A program made the position numbers and the translations under genes. From Nemertoderma westbladi (lineage: Eukaryota; Animalia; Xenacoelomorpha): a DNA stretch of 41,734 nucleotides. Positions 3,414-30,598 of this stretch are shown in pieces. The number at the start of each line of letters is the position of its first letter. Within the stretch, counting starts at the first letter, position 1. Below the pieces are notes generated by a model, which had not been told where the DNA came from, made no database searches, and saw only the letters and a list, made by a program, of their open reading frames with translations. The stretch spans positions 1 to 41,734 of the forward strand of contig JAUCBJ010003696.1 of the NCBI GenBank assembly GCA_032718475.1. Direction: 5' to 3'.

Positions 3414-3781
3414 AACTTATTTACGTTGTAAATTAACTGTAATTCTATCCTATTGAATAATATAATTAACTAGGCGATCCATAATCATAATACTGTACAT
3501 TATACGATTAATTAGTTCAGAGCATTTCTTTCTTTCTCCAATCAGGATTTCTCACTTTAATAGCATTGTGTAATGGAGGTCAAACAAATGACACTGCATC
3601 ATGAATATGTAGAGGAGGTCAAACAAATGACACTGCATCATGAATATCAACTGTAAATCCATGTAGTAACAGTTTAATATTTTAGCGATCTCGATTATAT
3701 GTTCAATTTGTAAATTACATTTTAATTAATTGAATTTTTAGTTATTGTACCAATACATTCTTCCTTGTATCAAAAAACTCC

Positions 3782-6932: not shown

Positions 6933-7904
6933 GACGGCACTACTACAGTATGTGTACCCCTGCTCGGGATTTTTTTTGTAGTAGCTAGTTTTTGCTACAT
7001 TTTTTTCTTAAATGTTCTATGTCATATTAGCTATAGTTTTGTAAAAAAAATGTTCTAGAACAAATATTTTTTGTTCTAGAACATTTTTTTAAAAATTTAT
7101 AATTCCTAATAATACACCTTAAAATGTTAATATGTTACCTTTAAATACTTCATAATATTATTCTAGAATGTTTTTAATGTTTACAGTGTAGTAGGTTCGC
7201 TTTAACTGTTTTCATTAAATAAAATGCCACGTCACGAAAACAAAAAGTGCTCTAAAGATCCAAATATTATTGACATTTCCAAAGAATAGTATAAAAGAAA
7301 AGTATAATTTTGAAAAAAATTTTTTTTTTTTAATAATAGCTAACTTGGAAAATCACCAGCTAGCTAGCCTGATAATTTGTAATTGTTTTAAAAAAATTTA
7401 AATGTTTATAAATGATAAACAAACTATTTATTACACGTAGTTACTAATTTTTAATAAATTTTTTTTAATTTCTTTAAAAATACTAGCTAATTTGGAAAAT
7501 CACTAGCTAGCCTGATAATTTGTATATTTAATGTTTATAGATAAATAAACTATTTATTACACATAATAACTAATTTTTAATAAATTTTTATTTTTAAATG
7601 TTCTAGAACAAAACATATTTGTTCTACAGTAGAACATAATTTTTTAAACCTTTTTTAACTTTTGCCCGCGCTATTAACCTTTTCTCCATCAGCTGCTTTC
7701 GGTAAATAAAATGCCTTGAGAATAGTGAAAAAAAAGTTCCACCTTTTTTCTAATGTAATAAATAATTATAGTTTTATTGTAATGAAAAATACTTTAGTTA
7801 TAAAATAAAAATATAAGTATTGAGCAAACATGAATTTTTTTTATTATATGAAAACAGCATAGCTATATAAAAGTTGATTTTATACGACGTTTAAAAGAGT
7901 TATC

Positions 7905-9219
7905 CCCATTGGAAACAGGAGACATCCTGTTTTCCACGGACATACCCTGTAGTGTCGCTTTATACCAGTATCCCCGTAGGAGAAGCTATCGATGACGTCA
8001 CAGACTTCGCTAATAAACATAAACATAGTATCAACTTGTTTGGACTCAGCATACCTGAATTTTATGGATTATTACAACTCGTTATAGATTTTAGCTATTT
8101 CGAGTTCGACCATAAATTTTATAAACAAAAAGATGGGATGGGTATGGGGAATAGGGCGGCGGCACCTTTTGCCATCATTTACATTCATATAAAAGAATCT
8201 CAGTACCTTAACACGTACCGACTAACACCAGAGTGTTGGTATCGGTTCTTGGACGATGGTTGGTCAGTGTGGAAACATGGGGAGGAAGAGTTGGGACAAT
8301 TTCTAGATTTTATAAACGCACAACACATAAACATACAGTACACGATGGAACAATCTTACACCGGACTATAATTTTTAGACGTATACACCAAAGTCAATGA
8401 CCAAGGAACCATAGACATAGAACCGTAGAGAAAACCCACAAACGCTGGTATCATACTGAACTACAATAGCCACCACCCGAAGTCAGTGATACTCAATACG
8501 GCTAGGAACCTAATACATAAAACGATCTTACACAGCTCTACAACGGTCGCCAAGCAACACGCCATACAAACCAACAGACAGTTACTCCACCAAAACAACT
8601 ACCCTCCAGCAGTGGTCAATAGACTCATCACCCAATCTGACTCACCCGCATACCACATCCCTTCACAACGTACTCCACCCACAGCAGACAATCAACCGAA
8701 ACACCCAATCATACTCCCCCACATCAACGAGGACGTTCGCAGGAAGGTAAAGGAGATATTAGAAGGTCTCCGTTTTCTAGAACCACCAGGGTTGTGTTCA
8801 CACCGGGACGGAAATTAAAAGATATATTAATACAAACACGGCTCAACAAACCCAAATGCCCCAAACTACCTAACACAATATGTTACACATGTTCCCCCGG
8901 TACACGCAACTGCACAAAAAAGAACGTAATTTACCAAACTACGTGCAATTTATGCAAAGAGAGATACATAGGCGAAACATATAAACCCATTAGGATACGC
9001 ACAATGGCACACAGGAACGCGGTACGAAACAATAACAAATCACGAAGGAGCTCCGTGGCGGCACACTACCTAGCCAGACATGGTCCATGGTCAGATGGCG
9101 CTCAACCACCAGGTCCTCCGCCGGTGCAGGAATTGGCCCGACAGGAAGATCAGCGAGAATGTATTGATACACCACCTGAACCCAGAAATAAACATACAAC
9201 ACCCCTCAGAATACGATAG
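7905..9219 (+). pseudogene. Penelope-like retroelement, 5'-truncated: RT plus Cys linker plus GIY-YIG endonuclease
   Basis: SLYTSIP, YKQKDGMGMG, YRFLDD (PLE-type RT); CPK..CYTC..C linker; NVIYQTTCNLCKERYIGET..R...H (GIY-YIG); internal stops and a frameshift near 8800. Confidence 0.92.
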
Positions 9220-9688: not shown

Positions 9689-10023
9689 TATTTCATTTTA
9701 AATCATATTTTTGGTCACTTAGAAAAAGGTCCTTCTAAACGCACTAACTCATTGTCTATTATTAATCGATTCGAGTGAAGCTTTAGGGCGAACAAACCGT
9801 ACAGAATCTGATCATGGAAGATTTACCTCTAGTCTTAAAACTTCTGAGAGTTGTGATAACATTACCTTTTATTTGACAAACGTATTTCATTGGTCAACAT
9901 ACTGTAGCATGATGATATTAAAACAATTTGTTGATCAATAAAGATATAAATAATACATGATATATTTGCCATTCCTCATAACATTTGGAATAGCAACGAT
10001 TGTAGTTGATGGATCACAAAAAA

Positions 10024-10148
10024 TTATTTGCCTTTCTTCTTTCGTTTGGTCATTTTTCTATTTGTTTTCGAGTCTACAAGCATCTGTCCCTGTCGTTTAA
10101 TGTCATCTCTGCTCAATACGTCATCGTCATCTCCAGAATCATCTTCAT
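10024..10148 (-). CDS. CCDC151: CCDC151/ODAD3 terminal coding exon
   Basis: ctttcctttatAG acceptor; (D)EDDSGDDDDVLSRDDIKRQGQMLVDSKTNRKMTKRKKKGK*; phase matches upstream exon; AATAAA on minus strand at 9868-9873. Confidence 0.85.
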
Positions 10149-10481
10149 CTATAAAGGAAAGACAGCAAATACAAATGTATAGAGTATATTTAAAATATAA
10201 AAAAAAAACGGACATAAACCCAATAAATTTTGATTAAATGTGGCACGAAAGAAAAACGTCAATAAAAGAAAGTTGTGACGAATAAATAAGCTGATTATAG
10301 TGATAAACTAATATACTTTTTACTTGTTCTTTTTAAATACAATTTTCTCTTTTGAACTCGTTTTCTCCTCGTATTCAGCCCCTCCCCTCCTCCTCCTCCT
10401 CCGGAAAATGAAAAAGGCCGCACCCTGCCTCTTAAACATCTACAGCTCGGTAGTGAATATAATCACTTAACCGTAACTTAC

Positions 10482-10566
10482 CATCATAAGGTTTATCAAC
10501 TGCTTTTACGGGAAGTTTCACTCTTACATTGTAACGCGGTTGTCTCTCTTCTAAACTAGCGATATA
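10482..10566 (-). CDS. CCDC151: CCDC151/ODAD3 penultimate exon
   Basis: tttttAG...G|GTAAGT; 85 nt encoding YIASLEERQPRYNVRVKLPVKAVDKPYD, resembling vertebrate LASLEGRLPEYNTRIALP. Confidence 0.85.
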
Positions 10567-10897
10567 CTAAAAAATAACAAAATATTATAGAACCAATAAG
10601 TCAGTCCCCAATAGGAACAAATCAAACTATGTCCACCCAATATGATCATGTCAACGCCATCAAATGTAGAGGAATCCCGTCGAACGAAAGATACCCTGTC
10701 AACCCACGAGGGATCCCAACAATTAAATGTGGATCCTCTCAATACAAGAAATTGTTTAATATTTCAAAAATTGAACTTTATAATCAGTTGGGGGTTATCA
10801 GTTCATAAACCTAAATAAACGTCAGACAAGCAATGAGCAGACTGAATGAAGGGTAGGATAACTTCTGTAAACTTCATACAAATCAATAGAATACATA

Positions 10898-11220
10898 ACT
10901 AGAGACGGCATCAAGACGCCGTTAAGCAAGTCGGAAGTCATCAATCAAATGTAAATTCCATCAACAAGCTGTCATTGGTGTTATTTTACCATTGCGCCTA
11001 TGGCGTTTTTTCGTTAATCTCTATTTTTCGAGCCCACGGCTCATGGACGAAATAGCGGAACATACCAGGGACCTTAGAATCGCGGTATCTAGCCGCTGTG
11101 AAAATTTCATCAAAATCGTTAGAGTAGTTTAGGCTGTAGATCAGTCAGCCAGCCAGTCAGTCAGCCAGTCAATCAATCAGCCAACAATTCTTACAGTAAT
11201 CAAGTCCTACGACTTGCTAA
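10898..11220 (-). mobile_element. Helentron-associated non-autonomous element (HINE/DINE-like), copy 1
   Basis: Sub-terminal IR agcaagtcg (10925-10933)/cgacttgct (11210-11218), hairpin caagtc-ctac-gacttg, stem-loop acggc..gccgt next to ACTAG, internal (cagc/cagt)n microsatellite; body shared with 29868-30087. Confidence 0.7.
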
Positions 11221-11420
11221 TGATAATAATATCGTAGAGAATCAAGATTACTTACTGCAGCGTTTTCCAACTATAATTCAGCGGCATAAAAAACAATTAA
11301 TAAAGTTAAGCAAAATAAATTGAAATAATTTATTATTCACTGACGGCAGTCAGTAAACATTAAATATAATAATAAATATAATATAATATATAATTATAAA
11401 ATATAAAATATAATAAATAT

Positions 11421-11492
11421 AACAATAATATCCCTAACCTCATCAACAATAATATCCCTAACCTCATCAACAATAATATCCCTAACCTCATC
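11421..11492 (-). repeat. 3 x 24-bp tandem repeat spanning the exon/intron junction
   Basis: Minus strand (GATGAG|GTTAGGGATATTATTGTT)x3. Confidence 0.95.
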
Positions 11493-11642
11493 TTGCTCCA
11501 TTTGTTCTCGAAGTTCCTCTAAGTTTTCCGGTTCTAATTCTTCGTCTAACTTTAGCAATTTATCTTCACAAATCATTAATAAATCCAAAACATACTCATC
11601 GCTATCCTTAGGGGCCTGCGTAGGTGGTTGGTCTCCTTTGGC
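11487..11642 (-). CDS. CCDC151: CCDC151/ODAD3 internal exon
   Basis: cttatAG...GAG|GTTAGG; 156 nt, phase 0/0: AKGDQPPTQAPKDSDEYVLDLLMICEDKLLKLDEELEPENLEELREQMEQDE. Confidence 0.85.
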
Positions 11643-12882
11643 CTATAAGTTTATAAGTAAACAACGTACTGCAATGGGTGTGTTGTGAGTCAATACCAAT
11701 TAATAGCAGAGCGACAGAGATGAGTTATTGAAAATGGAATGTAATTAACAATATAATTCATAATAAACTACCCTTCAATTCAATGAATTACAATCGTATG
11801 CGATTTGCAGGACACTGAAGACTATACAGATACGGAACCACATTATGTCCACCAGTTGATCTTTATAGTATAAATTATTTTTGAAATATTTTGGAAGATC
11901 CGCATTCTTTCTGCTATTACTGCTATATAATTATTTTAAAGGACAATGAATTTAATATTATCCGTTACCATGGAAACGATCACAGAATCGACATTGTTAC
12001 AACTTTATCAACATAACATTGGTGGTAAGGGTTGGTAAGGGTTGCCATTAAAAAATTTTGTTTTGTGTCAATGCAGTAAAATGTAAATGATATTCATGTA
12101 CTCAACTTACAATACTTCGTCCATATTTCTAAGCAGCAATAAATATATTTAATAAAAACAAATTAAAATTAAAGTAAAGTAAATCATTAAATCATGGGGA
12201 ATCCCACCACCCCAGAGGAGAGTTGTTCAATGGGGTAGACGACTCTGAAATTTTTTTTCGATTTTTCGTTGGTTTCATGTGAAAGAGCATGTGAAAAAAC
12301 CCCAGAGAGCAATTTTACATCAGAAAAAAATAATATTGGCCGAGTTATTGAGTGGCAATTTTAAAACGCAAAATTAGCAACATCGAAAAATCAGGCCGTT
12401 TCAGCTGAAACTGCACGAGTGACGTCAGCCATAACACAGCAACAGTTGTCAAGCGCAGTTGATTGGCTAATATCAAGTATAATATTGCAGTATCTAAAAT
12501 AAAACAAATAATAAATGTAGCTAAAAATTTATTTGGATGTGTATTTATGTTGTGTTAAGAATCGATTATAGGATAGCGGTATGGAGGCGATTATTCTAGA
12601 ATAATATTTATTTCGCCCATACCTGTACCGTAGAGCTGTATGTAGCTAAAAACAAATATAGCTAGCTAAATATTGCCAGGCGTTTCATTAATCGATTTTT
12701 TAATCGTTTTTACAGCGAACAATGCGGGATCGGTAGATTAGCACTAGATGGAAATTATTTAGTTTTTTTGTCTAGTTATTTAGCTAGCTGGTAAAAATTC
12801 TAGAATTTTAAGGAGCATTTTTTTTCAATAGTGGCTACAGCGGTACAAGTAAACGTTATTATACAGTTACCATCAAGGTGTA

Positions 12883-13010
12883 ATGGAGGCCGGTTTCGAA
12901 AAAGCGGACAGGAGAAACCTACCGGCTTTAACCTATGCTGCAATATTTCACTATACTTGTAGCAAACCAGAGAAAATAAGCCCGGAGTTCAGGAACGTGA
13001 ATACCTTGAG
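12883..13010 (+). pseudogene. First exon of a probable transposon accessory gene (SWIM/YqaJ-type, as in Kolobok elements)
   Basis: ATG...AG|GTTAGT encodes MEAGFEKADRRNLPALTYAAIFHYTCSKPEKISPEFRNVNTL, recalled as similar to N-termini of insect SWIM-YqaJ proteins; no downstream exons seen. Confidence 0.45.
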
Positions 13011-13077
13011 GTTAGTTAAATTATGGTAAATGGTAAGTTAACCTATATATTATCTTCAAATCTTTTCAAGTAGATTC

Positions 13078-16000
13078 ATTAAGTCATTAAGTAGGTCATA
13101 GTTAAGTCACAAGTAGTACAATACAAAATGAGTCACACGTGGTTCAAAGTGAGTCACAAGTGGCGCAAAGTGAGTCATAAGTAAAAGTGTCTGAGTCTGT
13201 ACTCCCAGATATTCCCATTGGCGATATCTCCTTTGCAGAAGTGAAGGCTGCTGCAAAGAGCATTAAGACCAATCGTGCCAGTGGAGTAGATGGTGTTCCC
13301 CCTGAGGTCTTTAAAATACCTGAGTGTTTAAAGCTCATCTATCCCATCATAGTAGACATGTACCGAACAACAAGAGTCCCACAAGAAATGAAAACAAATA
13401 AGTTGGTGCCAGTTCCCAAGAAGGGCAACCTAACACTCTATGGTTCTTTTCGGGGAATCTCATTGATCTCGATTGCTGCAAAGCTATACAATAGGATTCT
13501 ATTAAATCGCATCAGGGATCCCATTGAGAGACTGCTCCGTGGAAATCAGAATGGGTTCCGTAAAGGTCGTGGGACCATGGAGCCCATTTTGGCACTTAGA
13601 AGGATAATTGAAGAGTTATCAAAAAAGAAAGACAGGCATCTGGCTGTTATCTTTGTTGACTTCTTCAAGGCCTTTGATTCAGTCTCTCGCTAACGTATGT
13701 TCAGCATACTTTCATTATATGGGATTCCTGATGAAATTATTGCAGCAATCAGATCAGTATATGATGGTTCGACAACATTTGTGTCTACTGTTGACGGTGA
13801 CACAGAACCATTTGAAGTGTTATGGGGCGTCCTCCAAGGAGACACACTTGCACCATTCTTATTCATTATTGTGGTTGACTATGTTCTACGCATGTCCTTA
13901 GATCATTATAATGATGATGGGGTGATGATAACTCCACCTACTGGCTCCAGAAGTCGAGGAAATCCTGCCAAGTACCTAACTGATCTAGACTTTGCTGATG
14001 ACTTAGGAGTACTCTCAGAATCATTAGAGGGAGCCCAACGGCTCCTCAGCTCATTAGAACATGCTGCTTCTAGTGTTGGTCTTTTTATTAACTCCAGAAA
14101 GACCAAAATTCTGACAGTTAACTTTGAAAGTCCTCAGCAAGTCTCTGATCGGATGAGCATAAGCTCAAAGGATGGTATGCTTGAGCATGTGGACGACTTC
14201 TGTTACCTGGGATCATGGATCCGGAAGTCAGGTGAGGACCTTCGAATACGTAAGGGAAAGGCATGGGCAGCCTTGAATAGGCTTTCCAGGATTTGGAAGT
14301 CACCGAGAATTAATCGGAAACTTAAGGTCCGATTATTTAGAGCAGCAGTAGTTCCAGTACTCCTCTACGGGAGTCCATGCTGGGCTCTAACTGCTGAGGA
14401 CACCAAATCTCTGGATGGCACATTCACAAGAATGCTACGCCGGGTTCATTGTGTCAAGTACAATGCACACATCTCCAACCAGACACTATATAACATTGGA
14501 GGTGTCTCATTGGTTCCCCCAAGCTTGACACTAGAACAAAATCGCCTCCGCTTTGCAGGACATTGCTTTCGCCGTGAGGACCAGCCAGTGCATAATCTTG
14601 TACTTTGGCAGCCTCATGGAGTGAATAAGCATGGTGGACAGCCCATGACTTTCTTGAGACGCATCTTAAAGGACACTGGCCTTAAAGATGCGGATGATCT
14701 AGCAAGTGTCATGGGTGATAGGGAGTTGTGGCGGTGCAATTTTGTTGACAAGCCGGCACAGCATTCTTAAAAATGCAGCTGCAATGCAGCATGCCGATCC
14801 TAGTAGTAGAGTCATAAGTAGTACAAAATGAGTCACAAGTAGTACACAGTTGGTCATAAGAAGTTCATAGTTAAGTCACAAATAGTTCAAAGTGAGTCAC
14901 ACGTGGTTCTAAGTGAGTCACAAGTAGCGCTAAGTGAGTCAAAAGTAGTACAAAGTGAGTCACAAGTAGTACAAAGTGAGTCACAAGTAGTACAAAGTGA
15001 GTCACAAGTAGTACACAGTAGGTCATAAGAAGTTCATAGTTAAGTCACAAGTAGTTCAAAGTGAGTCACAAGTAGCGCAAAGTGAGTCATAAGTAGTACA
15101 AAGTGAGTCACAAGTAGTACAAAGTGAGTCACAAGTAGTACACAGTAGGTCATAAGAAGTTCATAGTTAAGCCACAAGTAGTTCAAAGTGAGTCACACGA
15201 GGTTCTAAGTGAGTCACACGTGGTTCTAAGTGAGTCACAAGTAGCGCAACGTGAGTCATAAGTAGTACAAAGTGAGTCACACGTGGTTCTAAGTGAGTCA
15301 CAAGTAGCGCAACGTGAGTCATAAGTAGTACAAAGTGAGTCACAAGTAGTACAAAGTGAGTCACAAGTAGTACAATATAAGTCATAAGTAGTACAAAGTA
15401 AGTCATAAGTAGTACACAGTAGGTCATAAGAAGTTCATAGTTAAGTCACAAGTAGTTCAAAGTGATTCACAAGTAGCGCAAAGTGAGTCATAAGTAGTAC
15501 AAAGTGAGTCACAAGTAGTACAAAGTGAGTCACAAGTAGTACACAGTAGGTCATAAGAAGTTCATAGTTAAGTCACAAGTAGTTCAAAGTGAGTCACAAG
15601 TAGCGCAAAGTGAGTCATAAGTAGTACAAAGTGAGTCACAAGTAGTACACAGTAGGTCATAAGAAGTTCATAGTTAAGTCACAAGTAGTTCAAAGTGAGT
15701 CACAAGTAGCGCAAAGTGAGTCATAAGTAGTACAAAGTGAGTCACAAGTAGTACAAAGTGAGTCACAAGTAGTACACAGTAGGTCATAAGAAGTTCATAG
15801 TTAAGTCACAAGTAGTTCAAAGTGAGTCACAAGTAGCGCAAAGTGAGTCATAAGTAGTACAAAGTGAGTCACAAGTAGTACAAAGTGAGTCACAAGTAGT
15901 ACACAGTAGGTCATAAGAAGTTCATAGTTAAGCCACAAGTAGTTCAAAGTGAGTCACACGAGGTTCTAAGTGAGTCACACGTGGTTCTAAGTGAGTCACA

Positions 16001-17410
16001 AGTAGCGCAACGTGAGTCATAAGTAGTACAAAGTGAGTCACAAGTAGTACAAAGTGAGTCACAAGTAGTACAATATAAGTCATAAGTAGTACAAAGTAAG
16101 TCATAAGTAGTACACAGTAGGTCATAAGAAGTTCATAGTTAAGTCACAAGTAGTTCAAAGTGAGTCACAAGTAGCGCAAAGTGAGTCATAAGTAGTACAA
16201 AGTGAGTCACAAGTAGTACAAAGTGAGTCACAAGTAGTACAAAGTGAGTCACAAGTAGCGCAAAGTGAGTCATAAGTAGTACAAAGTGAGTCACAAGTAG
16301 TACAAAGTGAGTCACAAGTAGTACACAGTAGGTCATAAGAAGTTCATAGTTAAGTCACAAGTAGTTCAAAGTGAGTCACAAGTAGCGCAAAGTGAGTCAT
16401 AAGTAGTACAAAGTGAGTCACAAGTAGTACAAAGTGAGTCACAAGTAGTACACAGTAGGTCATAAGAAGTTCATAGTTAAGCCACAAGTAGTTCAAAGTG
16501 AGTCACACGAGGTTCTAAGTGAGTCACACGTGGTTCTAAGTGAGTCACAAGTAGCGCAACGTGAGTCATAAGTAGTACAAAGTGAGTCACAAGTAGTACA
16601 AAGTGAGTCACAAGTAGTACAATATAAGTCATAAGTAGTACAAAGTAAGTCATAAGTAGTACACAGTAGGTCATAAGAAGTTCATAGTTAAGTCACAAGT
16701 AGTTCAAAGTGAGTCATAAGTAGTTCATAGTTAAGTCACAAGTAGTACAAAGTGAGTCACACGTAGTTCTAAGTGAGTCACAAGTAGCGCAATATGAGTC
16801 ATAAGTAGTTCATAGTTAAGTCACAAGTAGTACAAAGTGAGTCACACGTGGTTCTAAGTGAGTCACAAGTAGTACAAAGTAAGTCACAAGTAGTTCATAG
16901 TTAAGTCATAAGTAGTTCATAGTTAAGTGACAAGTAGTTCAAAGTGAGTCACACGTGGTTCTAAGTTAGTCACAAGCAGCGCAAAGTGAGTCATAAGTAG
17001 TACAAAGTGAGTCACAAGTAGTACAAAGTGAGTCACAAGTAGTACACAGTAGGTCATAAGTAGTTCATAGCTAAGTCACAAGTAATACAATACAAAATGA
17101 GTCACACGTGGTTCAAAGTGAGTCACAAGTAGCGCAAAGTGAGTCATAAGTAGTACAAAGTAAGTAATAAGTAGTTCATAGTTAAGTCTCAAGTAGTACA
17201 ATACAAAGTGAGTCAAACGTGTTCAAAGTGAGTCACAAGTAGCCCAAAGTGAGTCATAAGTAGTACAAAGTGAGTCACAAGTAGTACAAAGTAAGTCATA
17301 CGTAGTTCATAGTTAAGTCACAAGTAGTTCAAAGTAGGTCACACGTGTTTCTAAGTGAGTCACAAGTAGTTCAAAGTGAATCACAAGTAGATAAAGAAAG
17401 TCACACGAGT
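13078..17410. repeat. 21-bp minisatellite (~125 units), interrupted by a LINE at 13184-14808
   Basis: Consensus aagtgagtcacaagtagtaca with recurring variants; short left arm 13078-13183 and main array 14809-17410. Confidence 0.95.
13184..14808 (+). mobile_element. 5'-truncated RTE-clade LINE with one premature stop, (TAG)3 tail and TSD
   Basis: RT motifs ASGVDGVP, FRGISL, QNGFRKGR, FVDFFKAFDSV, GVLQGDTLAP, DFADD; in-frame TAA at 13691-13693; gagtcataagta at 13172-13183 and 14809-14820. Confidence 0.92.
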
Positions 17411-17429
17411 ATACGGGGTGTTGATTTGA

Positions 17430-19531
17430 CTTTAACAATAACAGAGTAACAATAAACACTCATCCCTTTAACACTAACAGAGTAACAATAAACACTCACC
17501 ACTTTAAGTAACACTAACAGAGTAACAATAAACACTCACCCCTTTAACACTAACAGAGTAACAATAAACATTCACCCCTTCAACACTAACAGAGTAACAA
17601 TAAACACTCACCCCTTTAACACTAACAGAGTAACAATAAACACTCACCCCTTTAAGTAACACTAACAGAGTAACAATAAACACTCACCCCTTTAACACTA
17701 ACATAGTAACAATAAACACTCACCCCTTTAACATTAACAGAGTAACAATAAACACTCACCCCTTTAACACTAACAGAGTAACAATAAACACTCACCCCTT
17801 TAACACTTAACAGAGTAACAATAAACACTCACCCCTTTAACACTAACAGAGTAACAATAAACACTCACCCCTTTAAGTAACACTAACAGAGTAACAATAA
17901 ACACTCACCCCTTTAACACTTAACAGAGTAACAATAAACACTCACCCCTTTAACACTAACAGAGTAACAATAAACACTCACCCCTTTAACACTAACAGAG
18001 TAACAATAAACACTCACCCCTTTAACACTTAACAGAGTAACAATAAACACTCACCCCTTTAACACTAACAGAGTAACAATAAACACTCACCCCTTTAACA
18101 CTTAACAGAGTAACAATAAACACTCACCCCTTTAACACTAACAGAGTAATAATAAACACTCACCCCTTTAACACTAACAGAGTAACAATAAACACTCACC
18201 CCTTTAAGTAACACTAACAGAGTAACAATAAACACTCACCCCTTTAACACTAACAGAGTAACAATAAACACTCACCCCTTTAACACTAACAGAGTAACAA
18301 TAAACACTCACCCCTTTAAGTAACACTAACAGAGTAACAACAAACACTCACCCCTTTAACACTAACAGAGTAACAATAAACACTCACCCCTTTAACACTA
18401 ACAGAGTAACAATAAACACTCACCCCTTTAACACTAACAGAGTAATAATAAACACTCACCCCTTTAACACTAACAGAGTAACAATAAATACTCACCCCTT
18501 TAAGTCACACTAACAGAGTAACAATAAACACTCACCCCTTTAAGTCACACAAACAGAGTAACAATAAACACTCACCCCTTTAACACTAACAGAGTAACAA
18601 TAAACACTCACCCCTTTAACACTTAACAGAGTAACAATAAACACTCACCCCTTTAACACTAACAGAGTAACAATAAACACTCACCCCTTTAAGTAACACT
18701 AACAGAGTAACAATAAACACTCACCCCTTTAACACTAACAGAGTAACAATAAACACTCACCCCTTTAAGTAACACTAACAGAGTAACAATAAATACTCAC
18801 CCCTTTAAGTAACACTAACAGAGTAACAATAAACACTCACCTCTTTAAGTAACACTAACAGAGTAACAATAAACACTCACCCCTTTAAGTAACACTAACA
18901 GAGTAACAATAAACACTCACCCCTTTAAGTAACACTAACAGAGTAACAATAAACACTCACCCCTTTAACACTAACAGAGTAACAATAAACACTCACCCCT
19001 TTAACACTAACAGAGTAACAATAAACACTCACCCCTTTAACACTAACAGAGTAACAATAAACACTCACCCCTTTAACACTAACAGAGTAACAATAAACAC
19101 TCACCCCTTTAACACTAACAGAGTAACAATAAACACTCACCCCTTTAACACTAACAGAGTAACAATAAACACTCACCCCTTTAACACTAACAGAGTAACA
19201 ATAAACACTTACCCCTTTAACACTAACAGAGTAACAATAAACACTCACCCCTTTAACACTAACAGAGTAACAATAAACACTCACCCCTTTAAGTAACACT
19301 AACAGAGTAACAATAAACACTCACCCCTTTAACACTAACAGAGTAACAATAAACACTCACCCCTTTAACACTTACCCCTTTAACACTAACAGAGTAACAA
19401 TAAACACTTACCCCTTTAACACTAACAGAGTAACAATAAACACTCACCCCTTTAAGTAACACTAACAGAGTAACAATAAACACTCACCCCTTTAACACTA
19501 ACAGAGTAACAATAAACACTCACCCCTTTAA
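17430..19531 (-). repeat. 36-bp minisatellite (~57 units; 37- and 40-bp variants) made of the exon end plus 5' splice site
   Basis: Minus-strand unit TTAAAGGG|GTGAGTGTTTATTGTTACTCTGTTAGTG; first unit is continuous with the exon ending at 19524. Confidence 0.95.
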
Positions 19532-19680
19532 GATGCCCTAGTTTATGATCTAGATGATCCACTCCCGCTTTGACATCAACTAGGATCGATGATTTGTCTG
19601 TAAATTCGTCTTCTAAATCGTCTCGCCTCAACTCTTCTTTCTCAAGGTGCTCTTGAAATTCTTCCAGCATTTGCTGCCCT
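19524..19680 (-). CDS. CCDC151: CCDC151/ODAD3 internal exon (most upstream found)
   Basis: attttAG...GGG|GTGAGT; 157 nt: GQQMLEEFQEHLEKEELRRDDLEDEFTDKSSILVDVKAGVDHLDHKLGHLKG, coiled coil matching the CCDC151 ...EHLASKL region. Confidence 0.85.
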
Positions 19681-19737
19681 CTAAAATATTAAATATGAAA
19701 TGAAAGATGATTAAGTAGCAATGAATGATATTTTATA

Positions 19738-19740
<3 letters not shown>

Positions 19741-20610: not shown

Positions 20611-22296
20611 CTAGAAGAGAGATGTAGAACTTGAATATCTGAAATACCGCAGCATTCTACTTCGTTTCCACACCGATTTGGCTAATCTTTTTGATACGTC
20701 CAATATCAAGAAATCAAAACTAAGCAAATCAAAGGACTCTAGATTATCGAAAGAACCAGAATCCGCAATCTCAGAGATGGTTCCCAACAAGTGTTCGGTA
20801 TCCTCTTGAACTAGTTTATATAGAACAATCGTAAGTTTAATTATACTAGGCAGAGATCGCAGCACGTTCATCAGACTTCCGCATTTCTTTGTAGTTAAGT
20901 GGAGAGTTTGGATCTTTATATTTATAGCGTGGTCTATAGAGTCTGCTAACAGCGTCAACTTGATTACGTTTGGAAATATGTTTCCTAAATCAGCCAACGA
21001 CAATGGATCATTGTCGGCCTTCTTAACATGGAAGGTCAAGTCTGTGACTTGAGGTAAACTAATTCCTCTACGAACAGTTTGCCAAAGAGAAACTGGAACA
21101 TTATCAACCCAATTCCAGATTAACACCAACCGAGTCAAGTTGGGTAACTCTTTGAGTTGATCAAATAATTGGACAACGTCCTGGTCATTAGTGACTTTCA
21201 ACACGAGCGTCTTGATTGTTTCTCTGCAATAAGGAATAAGGAAGTCCCTAACCTTCTGAGTAACTTCTGAATTAATGTTGAAAAATCGGAAGCGGAAGTC
21301 ATTGGAAATTTGACGGTCGATAAAATACTGGAGTACCTCAAATGAATTTTCTGTATTAATCTCGAGATGTGGGAGCGTTATCTGTAACTCGACTAGATGA
21401 GCCACTGAAATGTTGTCACAAAACTTTAAATAGAGCTTCTGTAATTCCTTCAGACGAGTTACACGTCTTAGTTTGGTGATGGTGATCTCGGATGTTGACA
21501 CATCCAAAACTTTTAATTTCTTGCACCTTTTTATAATAGCAGCGAGAATTGTATCATTTATGTCGATTATCATTATAGATGTGAGCCGTGAAAACCGAAC
21601 TCCTCTTCCAAAAACGTTTTTTATTCTTCTTCTATATCCATCCCTATCATCTTCATAGACCAATGAAATCTCTAAAAATGTCAAGACACCTGACATTCTT
21701 GGGATCCACTTTAATAGTGTAAAATAAATATCTAGAGAAAATTCCCTCACAAACTCGTTGTCTAGGATAAGTTCGAATGTTCTAAAATCCCATTTCCAGC
21801 TCAGATAAATATCACTATAGGTGTCCATGACACCGGCCAACTTCGGTTCCTCTAGACCCCTTAGATGATCGGGTGACATGGGAGATAAAAAAACTGTGAA
21901 CTTTAATAGCAACTCTTCAAACGCCATAACGTAGGCGTGCAGAATATATCGACGTATGCCAAGTTCAAGGGCCGGCGGCGTCATCACACTTGCTATGGTA
22001 CCCATCCAGGCGTTGAGGTCGGCCAAATCGCGGTCGGCTTCGTAACCAACCGAGGTGTTCGACCTTAATGTGGGGAGTCGCGGCAGACAGTCAGACATAC
22101 TCAGACAGTTGCGTGTGCGCACCGCCACAGATGGTTGCGTTACGGGTGAGCTGCGCTGGAAATGCCTTTCCCATCTTCGAACTTCTGTGTTGACCATCCC
22201 TTTAACAAACGCTCTGACTATAGTGGCGATGGAAACTTCTGTCAATGTTAACATTCGGCAGTCCTTGTTTAGAATAACCCGTGGTATTTTTTCCAT
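20611..22296 (-). CDS. Intronless 561-aa leucine-rich-repeat protein (RNI/FBXL-like LRRs, possible N-terminal BC-box)
   Basis: Long uninterrupted ATG ORF; repeats CKKLKVLDVS, LQKLYLKFCDNIS, LPNLTRLVL, FPNVIKLTL, LPSIIKLTI; N-terminal TLTEVSIATI. Confidence 0.75.
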   Translation of the reverse strand: MEKIPRVILNKDCRMLTLTEVSIATIVRAFVKGMVNTEVRRWERHFQRSSPVTQPSVAVRTRNCLSMSDCLPRLPTLRSNTSVGYEADRDLADLNAWMGTIASVMTPPALELGIRRYILHAYVMAFEELLLKFTVFLSPMSPDHLRGLEEPKLAGVMDTYSDIYLSWKWDFRTFELILDNEFVREFSLDIYFTLLKWIPRMSGVLTFLEISLVYEDDRDGYRRRIKNVFGRGVRFSRLTSIMIIDINDTILAAIIKRCKKLKVLDVSTSEITITKLRRVTRLKELQKLYLKFCDNISVAHLVELQITLPHLEINTENSFEVLQYFIDRQISNDFRFRFFNINSEVTQKVRDFLIPYCRETIKTLVLKVTNDQDVVQLFDQLKELPNLTRLVLIWNWVDNVPVSLWQTVRRGISLPQVTDLTFHVKKADNDPLSLADLGNIFPNVIKLTLLADSIDHAINIKIQTLHLTTKKCGSLMNVLRSLPSIIKLTIVLYKLVQEDTEHLLGTISEIADSGSFDNLESFDLLSFDFLILDVSKRLAKSVWKRSRMLRYFRYSSSTSLF

Positions 22297-22929
22297 CTTG
22301 CTACTTTATTTATAAATCATCTTATAATGCGAAATTGCGTAGTATTATACTAGTTAGTTATGGTGATTTTTTAAAACATACAAGAGATATGGGGGGGGGG
22401 GGGGGGGATGACTGGAAACTGGACTCAAGGTACTAATGCAGTATGCGTACCGTACACCCTCCACCACTTTTTCTTAGTGGCTAGTTTTTGCAAATTTTTA
22501 AGGAATACGTTCTATAACAAAAATCCTAAATTTAAAAAAAATTCATGTTCTAGAACAAATATTATTTATTCTAGAATATTTAATGAAAAATGCTATCCCA
22601 GCCAAATCTTTTACACAAGCTAGTGTTTGCTACATATTTATGATAATGTTCTAACACATGAAAAGTATTTTCTAATAAAAATATTCGTGTTCTATAACAA
22701 ATATTTATGGTCTTGAAAAGTTTTCAAAGTACGCCGGGATTATTTTTAAATCCGATTTCTAAGGCCTGAACATCTACCGAAGCCATATATAATATAAAAT
22801 ATCACTCACAACATAACATTCGTAATAATAAATGAATAATAAATAAATAATTTTTAATATTATTTATGTTTTTCTTATCGAGTCTCAGACCCTTGCTCCG
22901 GCACTTATTATTTATATTTTTGGTATCGA

Positions 22930-23095: not shown

Positions 23096-24476
23096 TGGTA
23101 ATGCGGTTGTGACTGGCGAGACCTGCTACCCGGCGAGACCCCTTGGTTACGGAGACCGAGGGGGTCCCAGACACGGAAATCGTTCTCGGACACCGGGCCC
23201 TGAATCCGTACCAGACTCAACCGGAATCCGAAATCGCTATCCGGACAGAAACCGGAAAATTCCCAAAGATATGGCTCTACACCAGGCACATCCGCAATAC
23301 CAATGGTAAACTCCCCTGGTTCAAAGGCACCATCTAACGCCAGTGATACTTATAAAACTTTTCACACGTTTATTGTGAACAAGTGTCGACTTAAAACGGG
23401 CACTTATCCCCTACGGTCATATGTGGAACAGCTAATATAATGGTCTCTCTAGGAAAGAAATAGAATGCAAAGGCATCAAATCCACTGCGGTGTTGTCTAA
23501 AATTCTATATTCAAGAAGAATAAATACAGTAAAGACACTAGGTAGTGTTAAAAAATGTATATATATTAGATTTTATAAGTAAGAGTAAGTCTATTTGGTT
23601 GCATTTTAAGAATTGTTAGTTTTCAAAGCCTTATATTTTCTGGTTCACAGGTTATCACTGTTTGAAAAAAATATTTTCTGGAAGTAAAATTTATCACTCC
23701 TCTACAACATGATCATTGAAAATTAATGTTAACATCTACTTTGGGATGTGTAGAGCGAAAAATAGTGGTATTCCATATATGGCACAGTATGCACTCATGG
23801 TAACAGTAAGTTTTAAACCTAAGTGCATACAGGTCCATGACGTGGAACACCATAGTGGTTTAGCCAATCAGAGCCTCTATCTGTTGAACCCACCATAGTA
23901 CTTATTAGCCTGCTACAATCTTTCTCCCCTGTCACTTAACTACTTCATTATATTAGCTCCTGTCAAAATTAATAACTACTGAATCATTTATTTAAAAAAT
24001 TGTTATTCTAGAATTATAACATTTTTGTTATTTAGTAATATTGCTGGTTACTGTAGAAAACCTAAGATGTACTTGTTTTATATAGACTGTCTTTCTTTCT
24101 AGGTGTTGCCCAGCAAATATTATATACAATACATGAACTACATTGTATATGGATTATATATTTTCATTATGTTGTAGAAATAATAATTACAAAATGTTAA
24201 TTTAATTTTTTTTTGATTGTATGCCTATTCAATTCTATTTTCGTGTGAGGATAACGGTGTTATTCAACATCTAAACATTCCCCATTAAAAATGATTCTGA
24301 CTTGTAATTCGGATGAATCTATTTCTACGACCGAATTTTTGAGGTTCCAGTAGTAATTCCGTTGAGGAGATTTTATGGCTCTCGACTTCAAGAAACACCC
24401 CAAGGGCTCACATAATCAGAAACAATACCGAATTACACATCAGAGACATCTGGGGAGTAGGAAGGGATATTCAAAA

Positions 24477-27400
24477 TGAAAACCAAGGGGGTGCTATCAG
24501 TAGAGGAAGGAGACGATGAAATCCAAGGGGGTGCCATCAGTAGAGGAAGGAGACGATGAAATCCAAGGGGGTGCTATCAGTAGAGGAAGGAGACGATAAA
24601 AACCAAGGGGGTGCTATCAGTAGAGGAAGGAGACGATAAAATCCAAGGGGGTGCTATCAGTAGAGGAAGGAGACGATGAAATCCAAGGGGGTGCTATCAG
24701 TAGAGGAAGGAGACGATGAAATCCAAGGGGGTGCTATCAGTAGAGGAAGGCGACGATGAAATCCAAGGGGTGCTATCAGTAGAGGAAGGAGACGATGAAA
24801 TCCAAGGGGTGCTATCAGTAGAGGAAGGAGACGATGAAATCCAAGGGGTGCCATCACTAGAGGAAGGAGACGATAAAATCCAAGGGGGTGCTATCAGTAG
24901 AGGAAGGAGACGATGAAATCCAAGGGGGTGCTATCAGTAGAGGAAGGAGACGATGAAATCCAAGGGGGTGCTATCAGTAGAGGAAGGCGACGATGAAATC
25001 CAAGGGGTGCTATCAGTAGAGGAAGGAGACGATGAAATCCAAGGGGTGCCATCAGTAGAGGAAGGAGACGCTGAAAACCAAGGGGTGCTATCACTAGAGG
25101 AAGGAGACGATGAAATCCAAGGGGTGCCATCACTAGAGGAAGGAGACGATGAAATCCAAGGGGGTGCTATCAGTAGAGGAAGGAGACGATGAAATCCAAG
25201 GGGTGCCATCAGTAGAGGAAGGAGACGATGAAATCCAAGGGGGTGCTTTCAGTAGAGGAAGTATACGATGAAAACCAAGGGGTGCTATCAGTAGAGGAAG
25301 GAGACGATGAAATCCAAGGGGTGCCATCAGTAGAGGAAGGAGACGATGAAATCCAAGGGGTGCTATCAGTAGAGGAACGAGACGATGAAATCCAAGGGGT
25401 GCTATCAGTAGAGGAAGGCGACGATGAAATCCAAGGGGTGCCATCAGTAGAGGAAGGAGATGATGAAATCCAAGGGGGTGCCATCAGTAGAGGAAGGAGA
25501 CGATGAAATCCAAGGGGTGCTATCAGTAGAGGAAGGAGACGATGAAATCCAAGGGGGTGCTATCAGTAGAGGAAGGAGACGATGAAATCCAAGGGGGTGC
25601 TATCAGTAGAGGAAGGAGACGATGAAATCCAAGGGGTGCCATCAGTAGAGGAAGGAGACGATGAATTCCAAGGGGGTGCTATCAGTAGAGGAAGGAGACG
25701 ATGATATCCAAGGGGTGCTATCAGTAGAGGAAGGAGACGATGAATTCCAAGGGGGTGCTATCAGTAGAGGAAGGAGACGATGATATCCACGGGGTGCTAT
25801 CAGTAGAGGAAGGAGACGATGAAATCCAAGGGGTGCTATCAGTAGAGGAAGGAGACGATGAAATCCAAGGGGGTGCTATCAGTAGAGGAAGGAGACGATG
25901 AAATCCAAGGGGTGCCATCAGTAGAGGAAGGAGACGATGAAATCCAAGGGGGTGCGCTATCAGTAGAGGATGGAGACGATGAAATCCAAGGGGTGCCATC
26001 AGTAGAGGAAGGAGATGATGAAATCCAAGGGGGTGCTATCAGTAGAGGAAGGAGACGATGAAATCCAAGGGGTGCTATCAGTAGAGGAAGGAGACGATGA
26101 AATCCAAGGGGTGCCATCACTAGAGGAAGGCGACGATGAAATCCAAGGGGTGCCATCAGTAGATGAAGGAGACGATGAATTCCAAGGGGGTGCCATCAGT
26201 AGAGGAAGGAGACGATGAAATCCAAGGGGTGCTATCAGTAGAGGAAGGAGACGATGAAATCCAAGGGGGTGCCATCAGTAGAGGAAGGAGACGATGAAAT
26301 CCAAGGGGTGCCATCAGTAGAGGAAGGAGACGATGAAATCCAAGGGGGTGCTATCAGTAGAGGAAGTATACGATGAAAACCAAGGGGGTGCTATCAGTAG
26401 AGGAAGGAGACGATGAAATCCAAGGGGTGCCATCAGTAGAGGAAGGAGACGATGAAATCCAAGGGGTGCTATCAGTAGAGGAACGAGACGATGAAATCCA
26501 AGGGGTGCTATCAGTAGAGGAAGGAGACGATGAAATCCAAGGGGTGCTATCAGTAGAGGAAGGAGACGATGAAATCCAAGGGGGTGCTATCAGTAGAGGA
26601 AGGAGACGATGAAATCCAAGGGGGTGCTATCAGTAGAGGAAGGAGACGATGAAATCCAAGGGGTGCCATCAGTAGAGGAAGGAGACGATGAATTCCAAGG
26701 GGGTGCTATCAGTAGAGGAAGGAGACGATGATATCCAAGGGGTGCTATCAGTAGAGGAAGGAGACGATGAATTCCAAGGGGGTGCTATCAGTAGAGGAAG
26801 GAGACGATGATATCCACGGGGTGCTATCAGTAGAGGAAGGAGACGATGAAATCCAAGGGGTGCTATCAGTAGAGGAAGGAGACGATGAAATCCAAGGGGG
26901 TGCTATCAGTAGAGGAAGGAGACGATGAAATCCAAGGGGTGCCATCAGTAGAGGAAGGAGACGATGAAATCCAAGGGGGTGCGCTATCAGTAGAGGAAGG
27001 AGACGATGAAATCCAAGGGGTGCCATCAGTAGAGGAAGGAGATGATGAAATCCAAGGGGGTGCTATCAGTAGAGGAAGGAGACGATGAAATCCAAGGGGT
27101 GCTATCAGTAGAGGAAGGAGACGATGAAATCCAAGGGGTGCCATCACTAGAGGAAGGCGACGATGAAATCCAAGGGGTGCCATCAGTAGATGAAGGAGAC
27201 GATGAATTCCAAGGGGGTGCCATCAGTAGAGGAAGGAGACGATGAAATCCAAGGGGTGCTATCAGTAGAGGAAGGAGACGATGAAATCCAAGGGGGTGCC
27301 ATCAGTAGAGGAAGGAGACGATGAAATCCAAGGGGTGCCATCAGTAGAGGAAGGAGACGATGAAATCCAAGGGGGTGCTATCAGTAGAGGAAGTATACGA

Positions 27401-27860
27401 TGAAAACCAAGGGGGTGCTATCAGTAGAGGAAGGAGACGATGAAATCCAAGGGGTGCCATCAGTAGAGGAAGGAGACGATGAAATCCAAGGGGTGCTATC
27501 AGTAGAGGAACGAGACGATGAAATCCAAGGGGTGCTATCAGTAGAGGAAGGCGACGATGAAATCCAAGGGGTGCCATCAGTAGAGGAAGGAGATGATGAA
27601 ATCCAAGGGGGTGCCATCAGTAGAGGAAGGAGACGATGAAATCCAAGGGGTGCTATCAGTAGAGGAAGGAGACGATGAAATCCAAGGGGGTGCTATCAGT
27701 AGAGGAAGGAGACGATGAAATCCAAGGGGGTGCTATCAGTAGAGGAAGGAGACGATGAAATCCAAGGGGTGCCATCAGTAGAGGAAGGAGACGATGAATT
27801 CCAAGGGGGTGCTATCAGTAGAGGAAGGAGACGATGAAATCCAAGGGGGTGCTATCAGTA
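24477..27860. repeat. 39/40-bp minisatellite (~85 units) with a 1027-bp higher-order duplication
   Basis: Unit gaaatccaagggg(g)tgctatcagtagaggaaggagacgat; near-identical ORFs recur at +1027 (25858/26885, 26015/27042, 26373/27400). Confidence 0.95.
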
Positions 27861-28520
27861 GGAGGAAGGAAAGGGTAATAATAAGGGAAGGAGTAAGGGT
27901 AATAAGGGAAGGAGAAAGGGTAATAAGGGAAGGAGAAAGGGTAATAAGGGAAGGAGAAAGGGTAATAAGGGCAAGGAGAAAGGGTAATAAGGGAAGGGAT
28001 AAAGGGTAAATAAGGGGAGGAGAAAGGGTAATAAGGGAAGGAGAAAGGGTAATAAGGGGAGGATAAAGGGTAATAAGGGGAGGATAAAGGGTAATAAGGG
28101 TAATAAGGGATAATAAGGGAAGGAGAAAGGGTAAAAAGGGAAGGAGAAAGGTAATAAGGGAAGGATAAAGGGTAATAAGGGAAGGAGAAAGGGTAATAAG
28201 GGAAGGAGAAAGGGTAATAAGGGAAGGAGAAAGGGTAATAAGGGAAGGAGAAAAGGGTAATAAGGGAAGGAGAAAGGGTAATAAGGGAAGGATAAAGGGT
28301 AATAAGGGGAGGATAAAGGGTAATAAGGGAAGGAGAAAGGGTAATAAGGGAAGGAGAAAGGGAAATAAGGGAAGGAGAAAGGGTAATAAGGGAAGGAAAA
28401 AGGGTAATAAGGGAAGGAGAAAGGGTAATAGGGGAAGGAGTAAAGGGTAATAAGGGAAGGAGAAAGGGTAAAAAGGGAAGGAGAAAAGGGTAAAAAGGGG
28501 AGGATAAAGGGTAATAAGGG
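27861..28520. repeat. 21-bp purine-rich minisatellite (~31 units)
   Basis: Unit gggtaataagggaaggagaaa. Confidence 0.95.
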
Positions 28521-29150
28521 AAGTGTTTACTGTGAAAGATCACCCATGGTGGAGAACAGGTATTCCTTTTAGGAAACAGACTGGAAATGTTTACTGTGGA
28601 TGATCCCCCATGGTATGGTGGTGAACAGACATTCCTTTAGGAAACAGAGTGGAAGGGTTTACTGTGCAAGATCACTCATGATGGATAACAAGCATTCCTT
28701 TAGGAAACAAAGTGGGAGGGTTTATTGTGGAAGATCAATCAAGTTTGTGAACAGGAATTCCTTTAGGAAACAGAGTGGAATGGTTTACTGTGGAAGATCA
28801 CCCATACATGGTGGTGAACAGGCATTCCTTTAGGAAACCAGTGTGGAAGAGTTTACTGTGGAAGATCAATCAAGTTTGTTAACAGGCATTCCTTTAGGAA
28901 ACAGAGTGGAAGGTTTTACTGTGGAAGATCACCCATGGTGGTGAACAGACATTATTTTAGGAAACAGAGTGGAAGGGTTTACTGTGGAAGATCACCCACA
29001 CCCATGCATGGTGGTGAACAGGCATTCCTTTAGGAAACAGAGTGGAAGGGTTTACTGTGAAACATCGAATAAGTTGGTGAACAGGCATTCCTTTAGGTAA
29101 CAGAGTAGAAGGGTTTACTGTGGGAGGTCTCCCATGGTGGTGAACAGGCC
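28521..29150. repeat. ~62-bp diverged tandem repeat (~10 units)
   Basis: Unit ggcattcctttaggaaacagagtggaagggtttactgtggaagatcacccatggtggtgaaca. Confidence 0.9.
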
Positions 29151-29342
29151 AGTTCCTTGGCTTAAGGGGGGGTACACCATTATGGTCCAAAATACTGTAT
29201 GTCGAAATTTTTTTTATGCTCTATTATAATGCACCATTGAATGGTGTTTCCAAATCTGAAAAACCGCTATTTAATAGCTCTTTAGTTTTCAAGTTATGAC
29301 AATTTCCATTTAGGGAATCCTATTGAAATTACTATTACTATG

Positions 29343-29867: not shown

Positions 29868-30138
29868 AGCTGTTATTGGTGTTATTTTACCATTGCGCCT
29901 ATGGCGTTTTTTCGTTTATGTCTATCTTTTTCGAGCCCACGGCTCATGGACGAAATAGCGGAACATACCAGGGACCTTAGAATCCGGTCAGCCAGCCGCT
30001 GTGAAAATTTCATCAAAATCGTTAGAGTAGTTTTGGCTATAGATTAACCAGCCAGCCAGTCAATCAGCCAACAATTCTTACAGTAATGAACCTCTCGGTT
30101 CCTAACTAGTGACGGGCCCAGGTCAAACGGAACCGAGA
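29868..30138 (-). mobile_element. HINE-like copy 2 plus the terminus of an adjacent tandem unit
   Basis: Body highly similar to 10967-11200; hairpin gaacc-tctc-ggttc (30088-30101); then ACTAG, tgac..gtca stem and ggaaccgaga (30129-30138), complementary to 30093-30102. Confidence 0.65.
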
Positions 30139-30253
30139 AGAAGCTGGCCCATCACAGCAACCTCCTGGTCCAGAACCTAATTCCCAGCGATCTGACAGCT
30201 CCAGTAATTCTGATACTGTAGAGCTGACCCCCGAACGCAAAGTGGAGACATTG

Positions 30254-30598
30254 GATCCCTACTGGATGGCCCCTGAGATGATTCAAGGGCAGCAGTACGA
30301 CGAGCGCGTCGATGTGTTCTCCTTCGGGATCGTTGTCGCGGAGATCGTCGGACGGATCTACGCGGACCCGGACATCCTCCCCCGGACGGACCACGATTAT
30401 GGACTGGATCGGCCGCGTTTCTACGATAAGTTCTGCCACAACTGTCCCGAGCCGTTGTACAAGCTCGCCTTCCTGTGCTGCTCGTTGGATACGGAACGGC
30501 GGCCGCCGTTCCAGCTGTTAGAGGCGTGGTTCGTTTCGCTCGGATCCTGGTTGGATATCGGCAGACCCCCTCCTCCCCCGATCTCCAACACGAACTAA
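30254..30598 (+). pseudogene. LIMK: LIM-kinase C-lobe fragment (subdomains VIII-XI) followed by AT-rich UTR-like sequence
   Basis: PYWMAPEM...YDERVDVFSFGIVVAEIVGRIYADPDILPRT..DYGL...KFCHNCPEP..KLAFLCC.LD.ERRP; lacks RYTVVG and no N-lobe exons were found upstream. Confidence 0.8.

What the first reader, a model, noticed from the sequence alone, without database searches (positions are those of the whole stretch)
17430..19531. A 5' splice site amplified ~57 times: satellite built from the CCDC151 exon/intron junction
Seen: on the coding strand the 36-bp unit is the last 8 exon nucleotides (TTAAAGGG) plus the first 28 intron nucleotides starting GTGAGT, so about 57 near-identical donors (a few are GTAAGT) run 2.1 kb into the intron. 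The first extra donor is in frame and stop-free (+12 aa); the next lies beyond a 40-bp variant that introduces TAA. Known: isolated junction-spanning VNTRs exist (e.g. human CBS). Inference: either exon definition selects only the first donor, or the array acts as a U1-binding array, a decoy/NMD rheostat or a recursive-splicing ladder.
Basis: partly seen in the sequence, partly recalled or inferred. Interest (0 to 1): 0.85.

Follow-up and report, generated by a model that had tools for sequence, protein, structure and literature searches.

The report
Splice-donor "mirage" repeat in CCDC151
In an animal's cilia gene CCDC151, the end of one exon and its splice signal are copied about 57 times in a row into the next intron, yet the one assembled transcript seen is cut at the first signal, so this is likely a tolerated example of a repeat type already known from lancelets and human genes.

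Summary
The array has 57 units: 56 with a GT donor and a last one with AT. The first unit spans a CCDC151/ODAD3 exon end.

A 1,610-nt spliced contig from run X4 joins the first donor (19523) in frame to the next exon, and no X4 contig lies on the array. Two DNA runs from different studies hold the head-to-tail unit, so it is not an assembly artefact. The copy number was not checked independently.

The donor position is ancient, but 0 of 29 orthologous genomic donors are repeated. This is a junction-spanning minisatellite of the human F7 intron 7 / lancelet "mirage" kind (PMC1557585, PMC3087553). It was likely seeded at a TTAAAG microhomology and is tolerated because the upstream donor wins. 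Decoy, NMD-rheostat and recursive-ladder roles found no support.

The scan has already noted many larger arrays of this kind on other DNA of this genome (unchecked notes). The open question is why they are so frequent here, not this locus.

The parts
19524..19680 (-). CCDC151/ODAD3 coding exon (157 nt), ends at a codon boundary; its donor GT starts at 19523
   Evidence: tblastn of 131 full-length homologs, 131 hits here; covered exactly by spliced contig of X4; Pfam ODAD1_CC weak, E 0.007
17430..19531 (-). 36/40/37-bp minisatellite, 57 units of 8 exon nt + 28 intron nt; 56 GT donors including the real one; begins and ends on the hexamer TTAAAG
   Evidence: head-to-tail 66-nt contigs in DNA runs X1 and X2
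19482..19487 (-). second donor; use would add 12 residues in frame; no use seen
11643..19523 (-). host intron, 7,881 nt: donor array, then 21-bp array, then LINE fragment
11487..11642 (-). next CCDC151 exon (156 nt); joined to donor 19523 in the X4 contig
   Evidence: loose end of X4 contig matches the start of this exon; tblastn
11421..11492 (-). second junction repeat: 6 exon nt + 18 intron nt, three exact copies; donors at 11486, 11462, 11438, all in frame and stop-free (+8, +16 aa)
   Evidence: which donor is used was not determined
10482..10566 (-). CCDC151 exon (85 nt), donor not repeated
10024..10148 (-). last coding exon to the stop codon

Best explanation
This is an intronic minisatellite whose first unit spans the donor of a CCDC151 exon; the assembled transcript uses the first donor, and the 55 further GT copies are likely silent passengers of a likely neutral tandem expansion. 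Shown: the array, the intact reading frame, the first-donor join in one spliced contig, and the unit in two independent DNA runs. Inferred origin: one 36-bp duplication by slippage or template switching between two TTAAAG hexamers, one at the exon end and one 36 bp into the intron, followed by expansion through unequal exchange or slippage, which spread the 40-, 37- and 15-bp variants. Inferred tolerance: the first copy keeps the original junction intact, and the most upstream of identical donors wins, as shown for human F7 intron 7 (oriented scanning or exon definition). Rare use of donors 3-56 would give a premature stop and likely be removed by NMD.
For: Spliced join: X4 contig (1,610 nt, depth 1226) lies only on 19523-19682. 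Its loose end is the start of exon 11642, and its other loose end reads as the conserved upstream exon. X4 has zero depth on 19460-19519. X4 holds 0.29 of the words of 9850-11700, close to the exonic share, so it behaves as RNA. Ancient donor position: 43 of 48 homolog hits run from the same residue into V, as read-through of GT would give, and 29 of 41 related loci have GT there. Array not conserved: 0 of those 29 repeat the junction. No insertion at this junction in 131 of 131 homologs. TTAAAG stands at both ends of the array. No structural masking: fold z -0.96, and the first donor is no more open than the next 27. A quarter of the window is tandem repeat, 16 arrays. Precedent: PMC1557585 (abstract, introduction, discussion read), PMC3087553 and PMC3902484 (passages read).
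Against: The RNA evidence is one contig from one run listed as 'DNA?'. Contigs drop rare isoforms and a filter omits some records, so minor use of internal donors is not excluded. CBS and IFI6 do use their first pseudo-sites (PMC1557585 introduction). Two of three donors of this gene in the window are repeated, more than random seeding predicts (P about 0.02 for the other donors, 0.06 for all other sites), against 1 clear case in 55 candidate donors in other animals, so blind duplication is probably not the whole story. In locus L015 (another animal), old copies of a donor have diverged to 25-35 of 55 flanking nt yet all four keep CAG|GTA, a hint against pure neutrality (one locus, noticed post hoc). 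The TTAAAG end could also be a later truncation, and the 24-bp repeat shows no microhomology.
Confidence: 0.78

Rival explanations
1. The array is an alternative-donor or NMD rheostat: donor 2 gives a +12-residue isoform, and donors 3-56 give stop-containing RNA that tunes CCDC151 dose.
For: The donors are identical to the real one. Donor 2 is in frame and 54 others share one premature stop. Human CBS and IFI6 use proximal pseudo-sites (PMC1557585 introduction). An unchecked note on GALNS in this genome reports use of an internal copy.
Against: No X4 contig on the array, and an unbranched contig across the first-donor join. No insertion here in 131 of 131 homologs. Array absent at 29 of 29 orthologous donors.
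Confidence: 0.11
2. The array works without being spliced: a U1-loading strip that protects or speeds transcription through a repeat-swollen intron, or a recursive/micro-exon ladder. Each unit has a U-rich stretch and TAG 10 nt before the next donor.
For: 55 GTRAGT in the first 2.1 kb of a 7.9-kb intron. Decayed copies in L015 keep the donor core. The TAG-10 nt-GT layout is visible in the unit. U1 telescripting is established (abstract of PMC5499120 in listing).
Against: Only 1 of 56 donors has AG directly before GT, so it is not a classical recursive site. The micro-exon route would leave 10 or 14 nt, and the contig shows a direct join. Only 3 AATAAA in the other 5.8 kb of the intron. No sparing of donor positions among 17 substitutions. 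Not conserved.
Confidence: 0.08
3. The array is an assembly artefact or is greatly inflated, or the gene is a pseudogene.
For: The copy number of 57 rests on the assembly alone; short-read contigs collapse the array.
Against: The head-to-tail 66-nt contig is in X1 and X2, from two samples and two studies, depth 222 and 250 (one may be the assembly's source). The array has many distinct unit variants. The frame is intact and a spliced contig exists.
Confidence: 0.03

Closest known systems
Human F7 intron 7 37-bp VNTR (Borensztajn et al. 2006, PMC1557585; abstract, introduction and discussion read)
   Same: The first unit spans exon end and donor (4 exon + 33 intron nt, against 8 + 28 here). Unit size is nearly the same, the pseudo-donors are identical, and only the most upstream donor is used.
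   Different: 5-9 copies against 57. Polymorphism and pseudo-site competence were shown by mutagenesis there and are untested here.
Human IFI6 (6-16) intron 2 (25 pseudo-sites), CBS intron 13 (15-20), LMNB2 (10-15), PDGF intron 4 (16-18), as cited in the PMC1557585 introduction (primary papers not seen)
   Same: Donor-reiterating minisatellites at exon-intron boundaries.
   Different: IFI6 and CBS use two pseudo-sites as well. No such use was seen here, but only contigs were available.
Lancelet 'mirage' minisatellites: Adh3, globins BflGb6/BflGb9, troponin C, PGBD5 (PMC3087553 and PMC3902484, matching passages read; the Adh3 and TnC papers not seen)
   Same: Tandem copies of exon-intron boundaries in an invertebrate, several per gene (PGBD5 has two), units 10-160 bp, normal splicing kept, origin stated as unclear.
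   Different: The copy numbers given in the passages read (2-7) are far lower than 57. Length and somatic instability were shown for Adh3 and are untested here. This animal's group was not determined.

Membership tests
Junction-spanning minisatellite ('mirage' / F7-type) | Head-to-tail repeat whose terminal unit spans a true exon-intron boundary | tested here: met
   boundary confirmed by spliced contig and orthologs
Junction-spanning minisatellite ('mirage' / F7-type) | Splice signal reiterated in the units | tested here: met
   56 of 57 units keep GT
Junction-spanning minisatellite ('mirage' / F7-type) | Normal splicing at the authentic site is kept | tested here: met
   major form only: one contig of run X4
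Junction-spanning minisatellite ('mirage' / F7-type) | Length varies between haplotypes or cells (VNTR) | not testable with these tools
   only collapsed short-read contigs were served
Junction-spanning minisatellite ('mirage' / F7-type) | Pseudo-sites are competent when the first site is mutated | not testable with these tools
   needs a minigene; shown for F7 in PMC1557585
Recursive splice sites (definition recalled) | AG directly followed by GT, behind a pyrimidine tract | tested here: not met
   1 of 56 donors has AG|GT
Regulated alternative donor / NMD switch | Internal donors used in RNA; layout conserved | tested here: inconclusive
   no use seen in contigs, which cannot show rare forms; not conserved, 0 of 29
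CCDC151/ODAD3 (host gene) | Collinear homology to named CCDC151/ODAD3 proteins with an intact frame | tested here: met
   for the last four coding exons; upstream exons lie outside the window

The most novel reading that the evidence does not exclude
In this animal, exon-intron borders are preferred seeds of tandem duplication. Splice-site satellites are then a genome-wide, intron-building repeat class made by a process tied to the junction itself, for example repair or recombination tracts that start in conserved exon and switch template on meeting divergent intron, or splicing-coupled DNA damage. Old copies may even be kept as U1-binding cores. This locus would be one sample: two of three donors hit.
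Probability: 0.3. Interest if true: 0.6.

Novelty: new member of a known kind. Interest (0 to 1): 0.22.

Why it matters
Taken alone the locus is ordinary: a larger-than-human example of a described, tolerated repeat, and smaller than others this scan has noted in the same genome (hundreds to about 2,100 copies; unchecked notes). Its value is as a data point. It supports upstream-donor dominance outside mammals against 55 near-identical competitors. With the second triplicated donor, it hints at a junction bias in how tandem duplications arise, a mechanism that PMC3087553 calls unclear. A genome rich in such arrays would make that question, and the proposed link to intron gain, testable by simple counting.

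Tried and rejected
No whole genome is held, so no genome-wide count was possible.

Single-exon homolog search gave 0 hits among 17 candidates; the profile-library search gave 48. The organism's own full-length protein was not among the 131 full-length proteins compared (top identity 57.5%). No RNA holder was listed as such, and X6 laid nothing: no evidence either way.

Donor use at the 24-bp repeat is open, because no reads were laid there. The X4 contig length fits either the first donor plus a short poly(A) or the second donor without it (arithmetic).

RNA structure masking the pseudo-donors was rejected. Clustering of unit variants was not significant: 37-mers p 0.08, 40-mers p 0.93 and 0.31.

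Two of my own slips: one search used a wrong last-exon boundary and its stop positions are void (redone); double-counted the array and used multimer periods (redone).

Literature searches for a genome-wide description returned only F7, the two lancelet papers and a human tandem-repeat/splicing catalogue (PMC10078293, passages read, no donor-array mechanism seen in them). on CCDC151 splicing listed nothing on such an array (listing only). The library lacks most subscription papers, and no supplements were opened.

The upstream exon is not in the window.

Full report
Observation. On the - strand the array runs from 19531 to 17430. It holds 56 GT donors, the first at 19523, and a final copy that reads AT: 57 units. 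Spacings are 36 bp (34 times), 40 bp (15), 37 bp (5) and 15 bp (1). Three donors are GTAAGT. The unit is 8 exon nt plus 28 intron nt. Using donor 2 (19487) adds 12 codons without a stop; the other 54 GT donors all meet the same premature stop in the first 40-bp unit.

Host gene. Four exons lie on the - strand: 19680-19524, 11642-11487, 10566-10482 and 10148-10024. They join to an open frame of 173 residues plus stop. This model hits all 131 full-length proteins compared (best E 2e-47); most of those that carry a name are called CCDC151/ODAD3. No upstream exon lies in the window, so the preceding intron exceeds 22 kb. The donor position is old. In 43 of 48 hits to the exon the next residue is V, as read-through into GT gives. 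In 41 related loci, 29 have GT at the same codon boundary and 12 continue in coding sequence. None of the 29 repeats its junction. Several of these loci are near-duplicates, two have under 70 nt downstream, and short-read contigs may break at arrays, so this shows lack of conservation, not a frequency.

Reality and splicing. Seven runs were listed, six holding the stretch or a part. Four were laid on 19460-19740. X1 and X2, from two samples and two studies, each hold a 66-nt contig of the head-to-tail unit (depth 222 and 250); one may be the assembly's source. X4 is labelled 'DNA?' but behaves as RNA. One 1,610-nt contig (depth 1226) lies only on 19523-19682 and continues on one side into the start of exon 11642 and on the other into sequence that translates like the conserved upstream exon. 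This is the first-donor join, in frame. X4 has no depth on the array. X6 laid nothing. Contigs show presence, not absence, so minor internal donor use remains open.

Second repeat. The next exon's donor is also duplicated: 11421-11492, 6 exon + 18 intron nt, three exact copies, all in frame and stop-free. Of 130 homologs covering that junction, 128 show no gap and two a one-residue gap. Which donor is used was not determined. The other donor and the four acceptors are single-copy (the last acceptor was probed two bases off). The window has 16 arrays of period 10 or more, covering 25% of it. Leaving out the array that brought the window in, a simple random-seeding model gives P 0.022 that one of the other two donors is hit, or 0.064 over six other splice sites. 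In related loci of other animals, 2 of 55 automatically picked candidate donors (some surely wrong) had a downstream copy above 60 shuffles, one clear and one marginal. This is a weak but real hint of junction bias.

Mechanism. The array starts and ends on TTAAAG. This suggests, by inference, a first duplication between an exonic and an intronic copy of that hexamer 36 bp apart, then expansion by slippage or unequal exchange. The 24-bp repeat has no such microhomology. Tolerance follows because the first copy leaves the junction untouched and the upstream donor wins. Structure does not explain this: fold z -0.96, and the first donor is no more accessible than the next 27. For human F7, mutagenesis showed competent pseudo-sites and strict choice of the most upstream one (PMC1557585). 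That the same rule acts here is inference.

Functional rivals. Only 1 of 56 donors has AG before GT, so these are not classical recursive sites. Each unit does carry a U-rich TAG 10 nt before the next donor, but that route would leave 10 or 14 nt that the contig lacks. Of 17 substitutions, 4 fall in +1..+6 against 2.8 expected (one more in the 15-bp unit was missed by the aligner), so the donors are not visibly spared; power is low. The rest of the intron has three AATAAA. One result points the other way. In L015, an ortholog from another animal, the previous exon's donor has four decayed copies at 64-72 bp spacing. With the core masked they match 35, 31, 27 and 25 of 55 nt (shuffle 95th percentile 27, maximum 30), so two are individually significant, and all four keep CAG|GTA. 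I noticed this after the fact and at one locus; it is a lead only.

Known kinds. Human F7, IFI6, CBS, LMNB2 and PDGF carry such donor-reiterating minisatellites (PMC1557585 introduction). In lancelets they are called mirages, occur at donors and acceptors, leave splicing normal and have an unexplained origin (PMC3087553; PMC3902484; passages only). The three features I could test are met; length polymorphism and pseudo-site competence could not be tested. Searches found no genome-wide account in the open library.

Earlier scan notes. The scan has noted the same thing many times on other DNA of this genome (TFG, GALNS, tensin, PRPF8, MPDZ, beta-catenin and others, up to about 2,100 copies). 59 findings in at least 17 genomes hold the search words (nothing near this locus). 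These are unchecked AI notes that I could not test. They gave me the lancelet papers, which I then read, and they frame the novel case; they are not counted as support. One note guesses a marine acoel as the host; I did not test that.

Verdict. Real, transcribed, spliced at the first donor; a new member of a known kind, most likely neutral (0.78). Interest 0.22 for the locus. The most novel reading not excluded is a junction-biased duplication process across this genome (probability 0.3, interest 0.6).

Noticed in passing
window 11421-11492 (-): The next CCDC151 exon's donor is triplicated (24-bp unit, in frame, +8 or +16 aa if used); usage not determined.
   Followed up: partly
L015 1078-1499 (+): In another animal's CCDC151 ortholog, an intron is largely built from 4-5 decayed copies (64-72 bp apart) of the preceding exon end and donor; flanks are 45-64% identical but CAG|GTA is kept in all. 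TRF misses it. Possible old mirage with a spared core.
   Followed up: partly
window 13124-17405: A 21-bp minisatellite (122 copies) begins 25 bp after the donor array and continues on both sides of a 5'-truncated LINE reverse-transcriptase fragment (about 13181-14810, + strand, one stop, short TAG-repeat tail), so the LINE appears to have inserted into it. The RTE-like label is recalled, not tested.
   Followed up: partly
window 20611-22305 (-): Intronless 564-codon ORF with weak leucine-rich-repeat Pfam hits (E 0.02-0.06), on the same strand inside the more than 22-kb upstream CCDC151 intron.
   Followed up: partly
window 24476-29158: Three abutting arrays (39 bp x86, 21 bp x31, 63 bp x10). 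The 39-bp unit has a pyrimidine-rich stretch ending in TAG on the - strand, acceptor-like, but no exon was found next to it.
   Followed up: no
window 30113-30598 (+): Isolated protein-kinase C-lobe fragment (Pfam PK_Tyr_Ser-Thr, E 5e-12), antisense within the upstream intron.
   Followed up: partly
window 17430-19523 (+ strand): Each unit carries AATAAA on the antisense strand (55 copies); probably incidental.
   Followed up: no
window 3734-5005, 7895-9219, 38840-41107 (+): ORFs that look like transposon remnants (MULE-like, Penelope-like and P/THAP-like; labels recalled, not tested).
   Followed up: no
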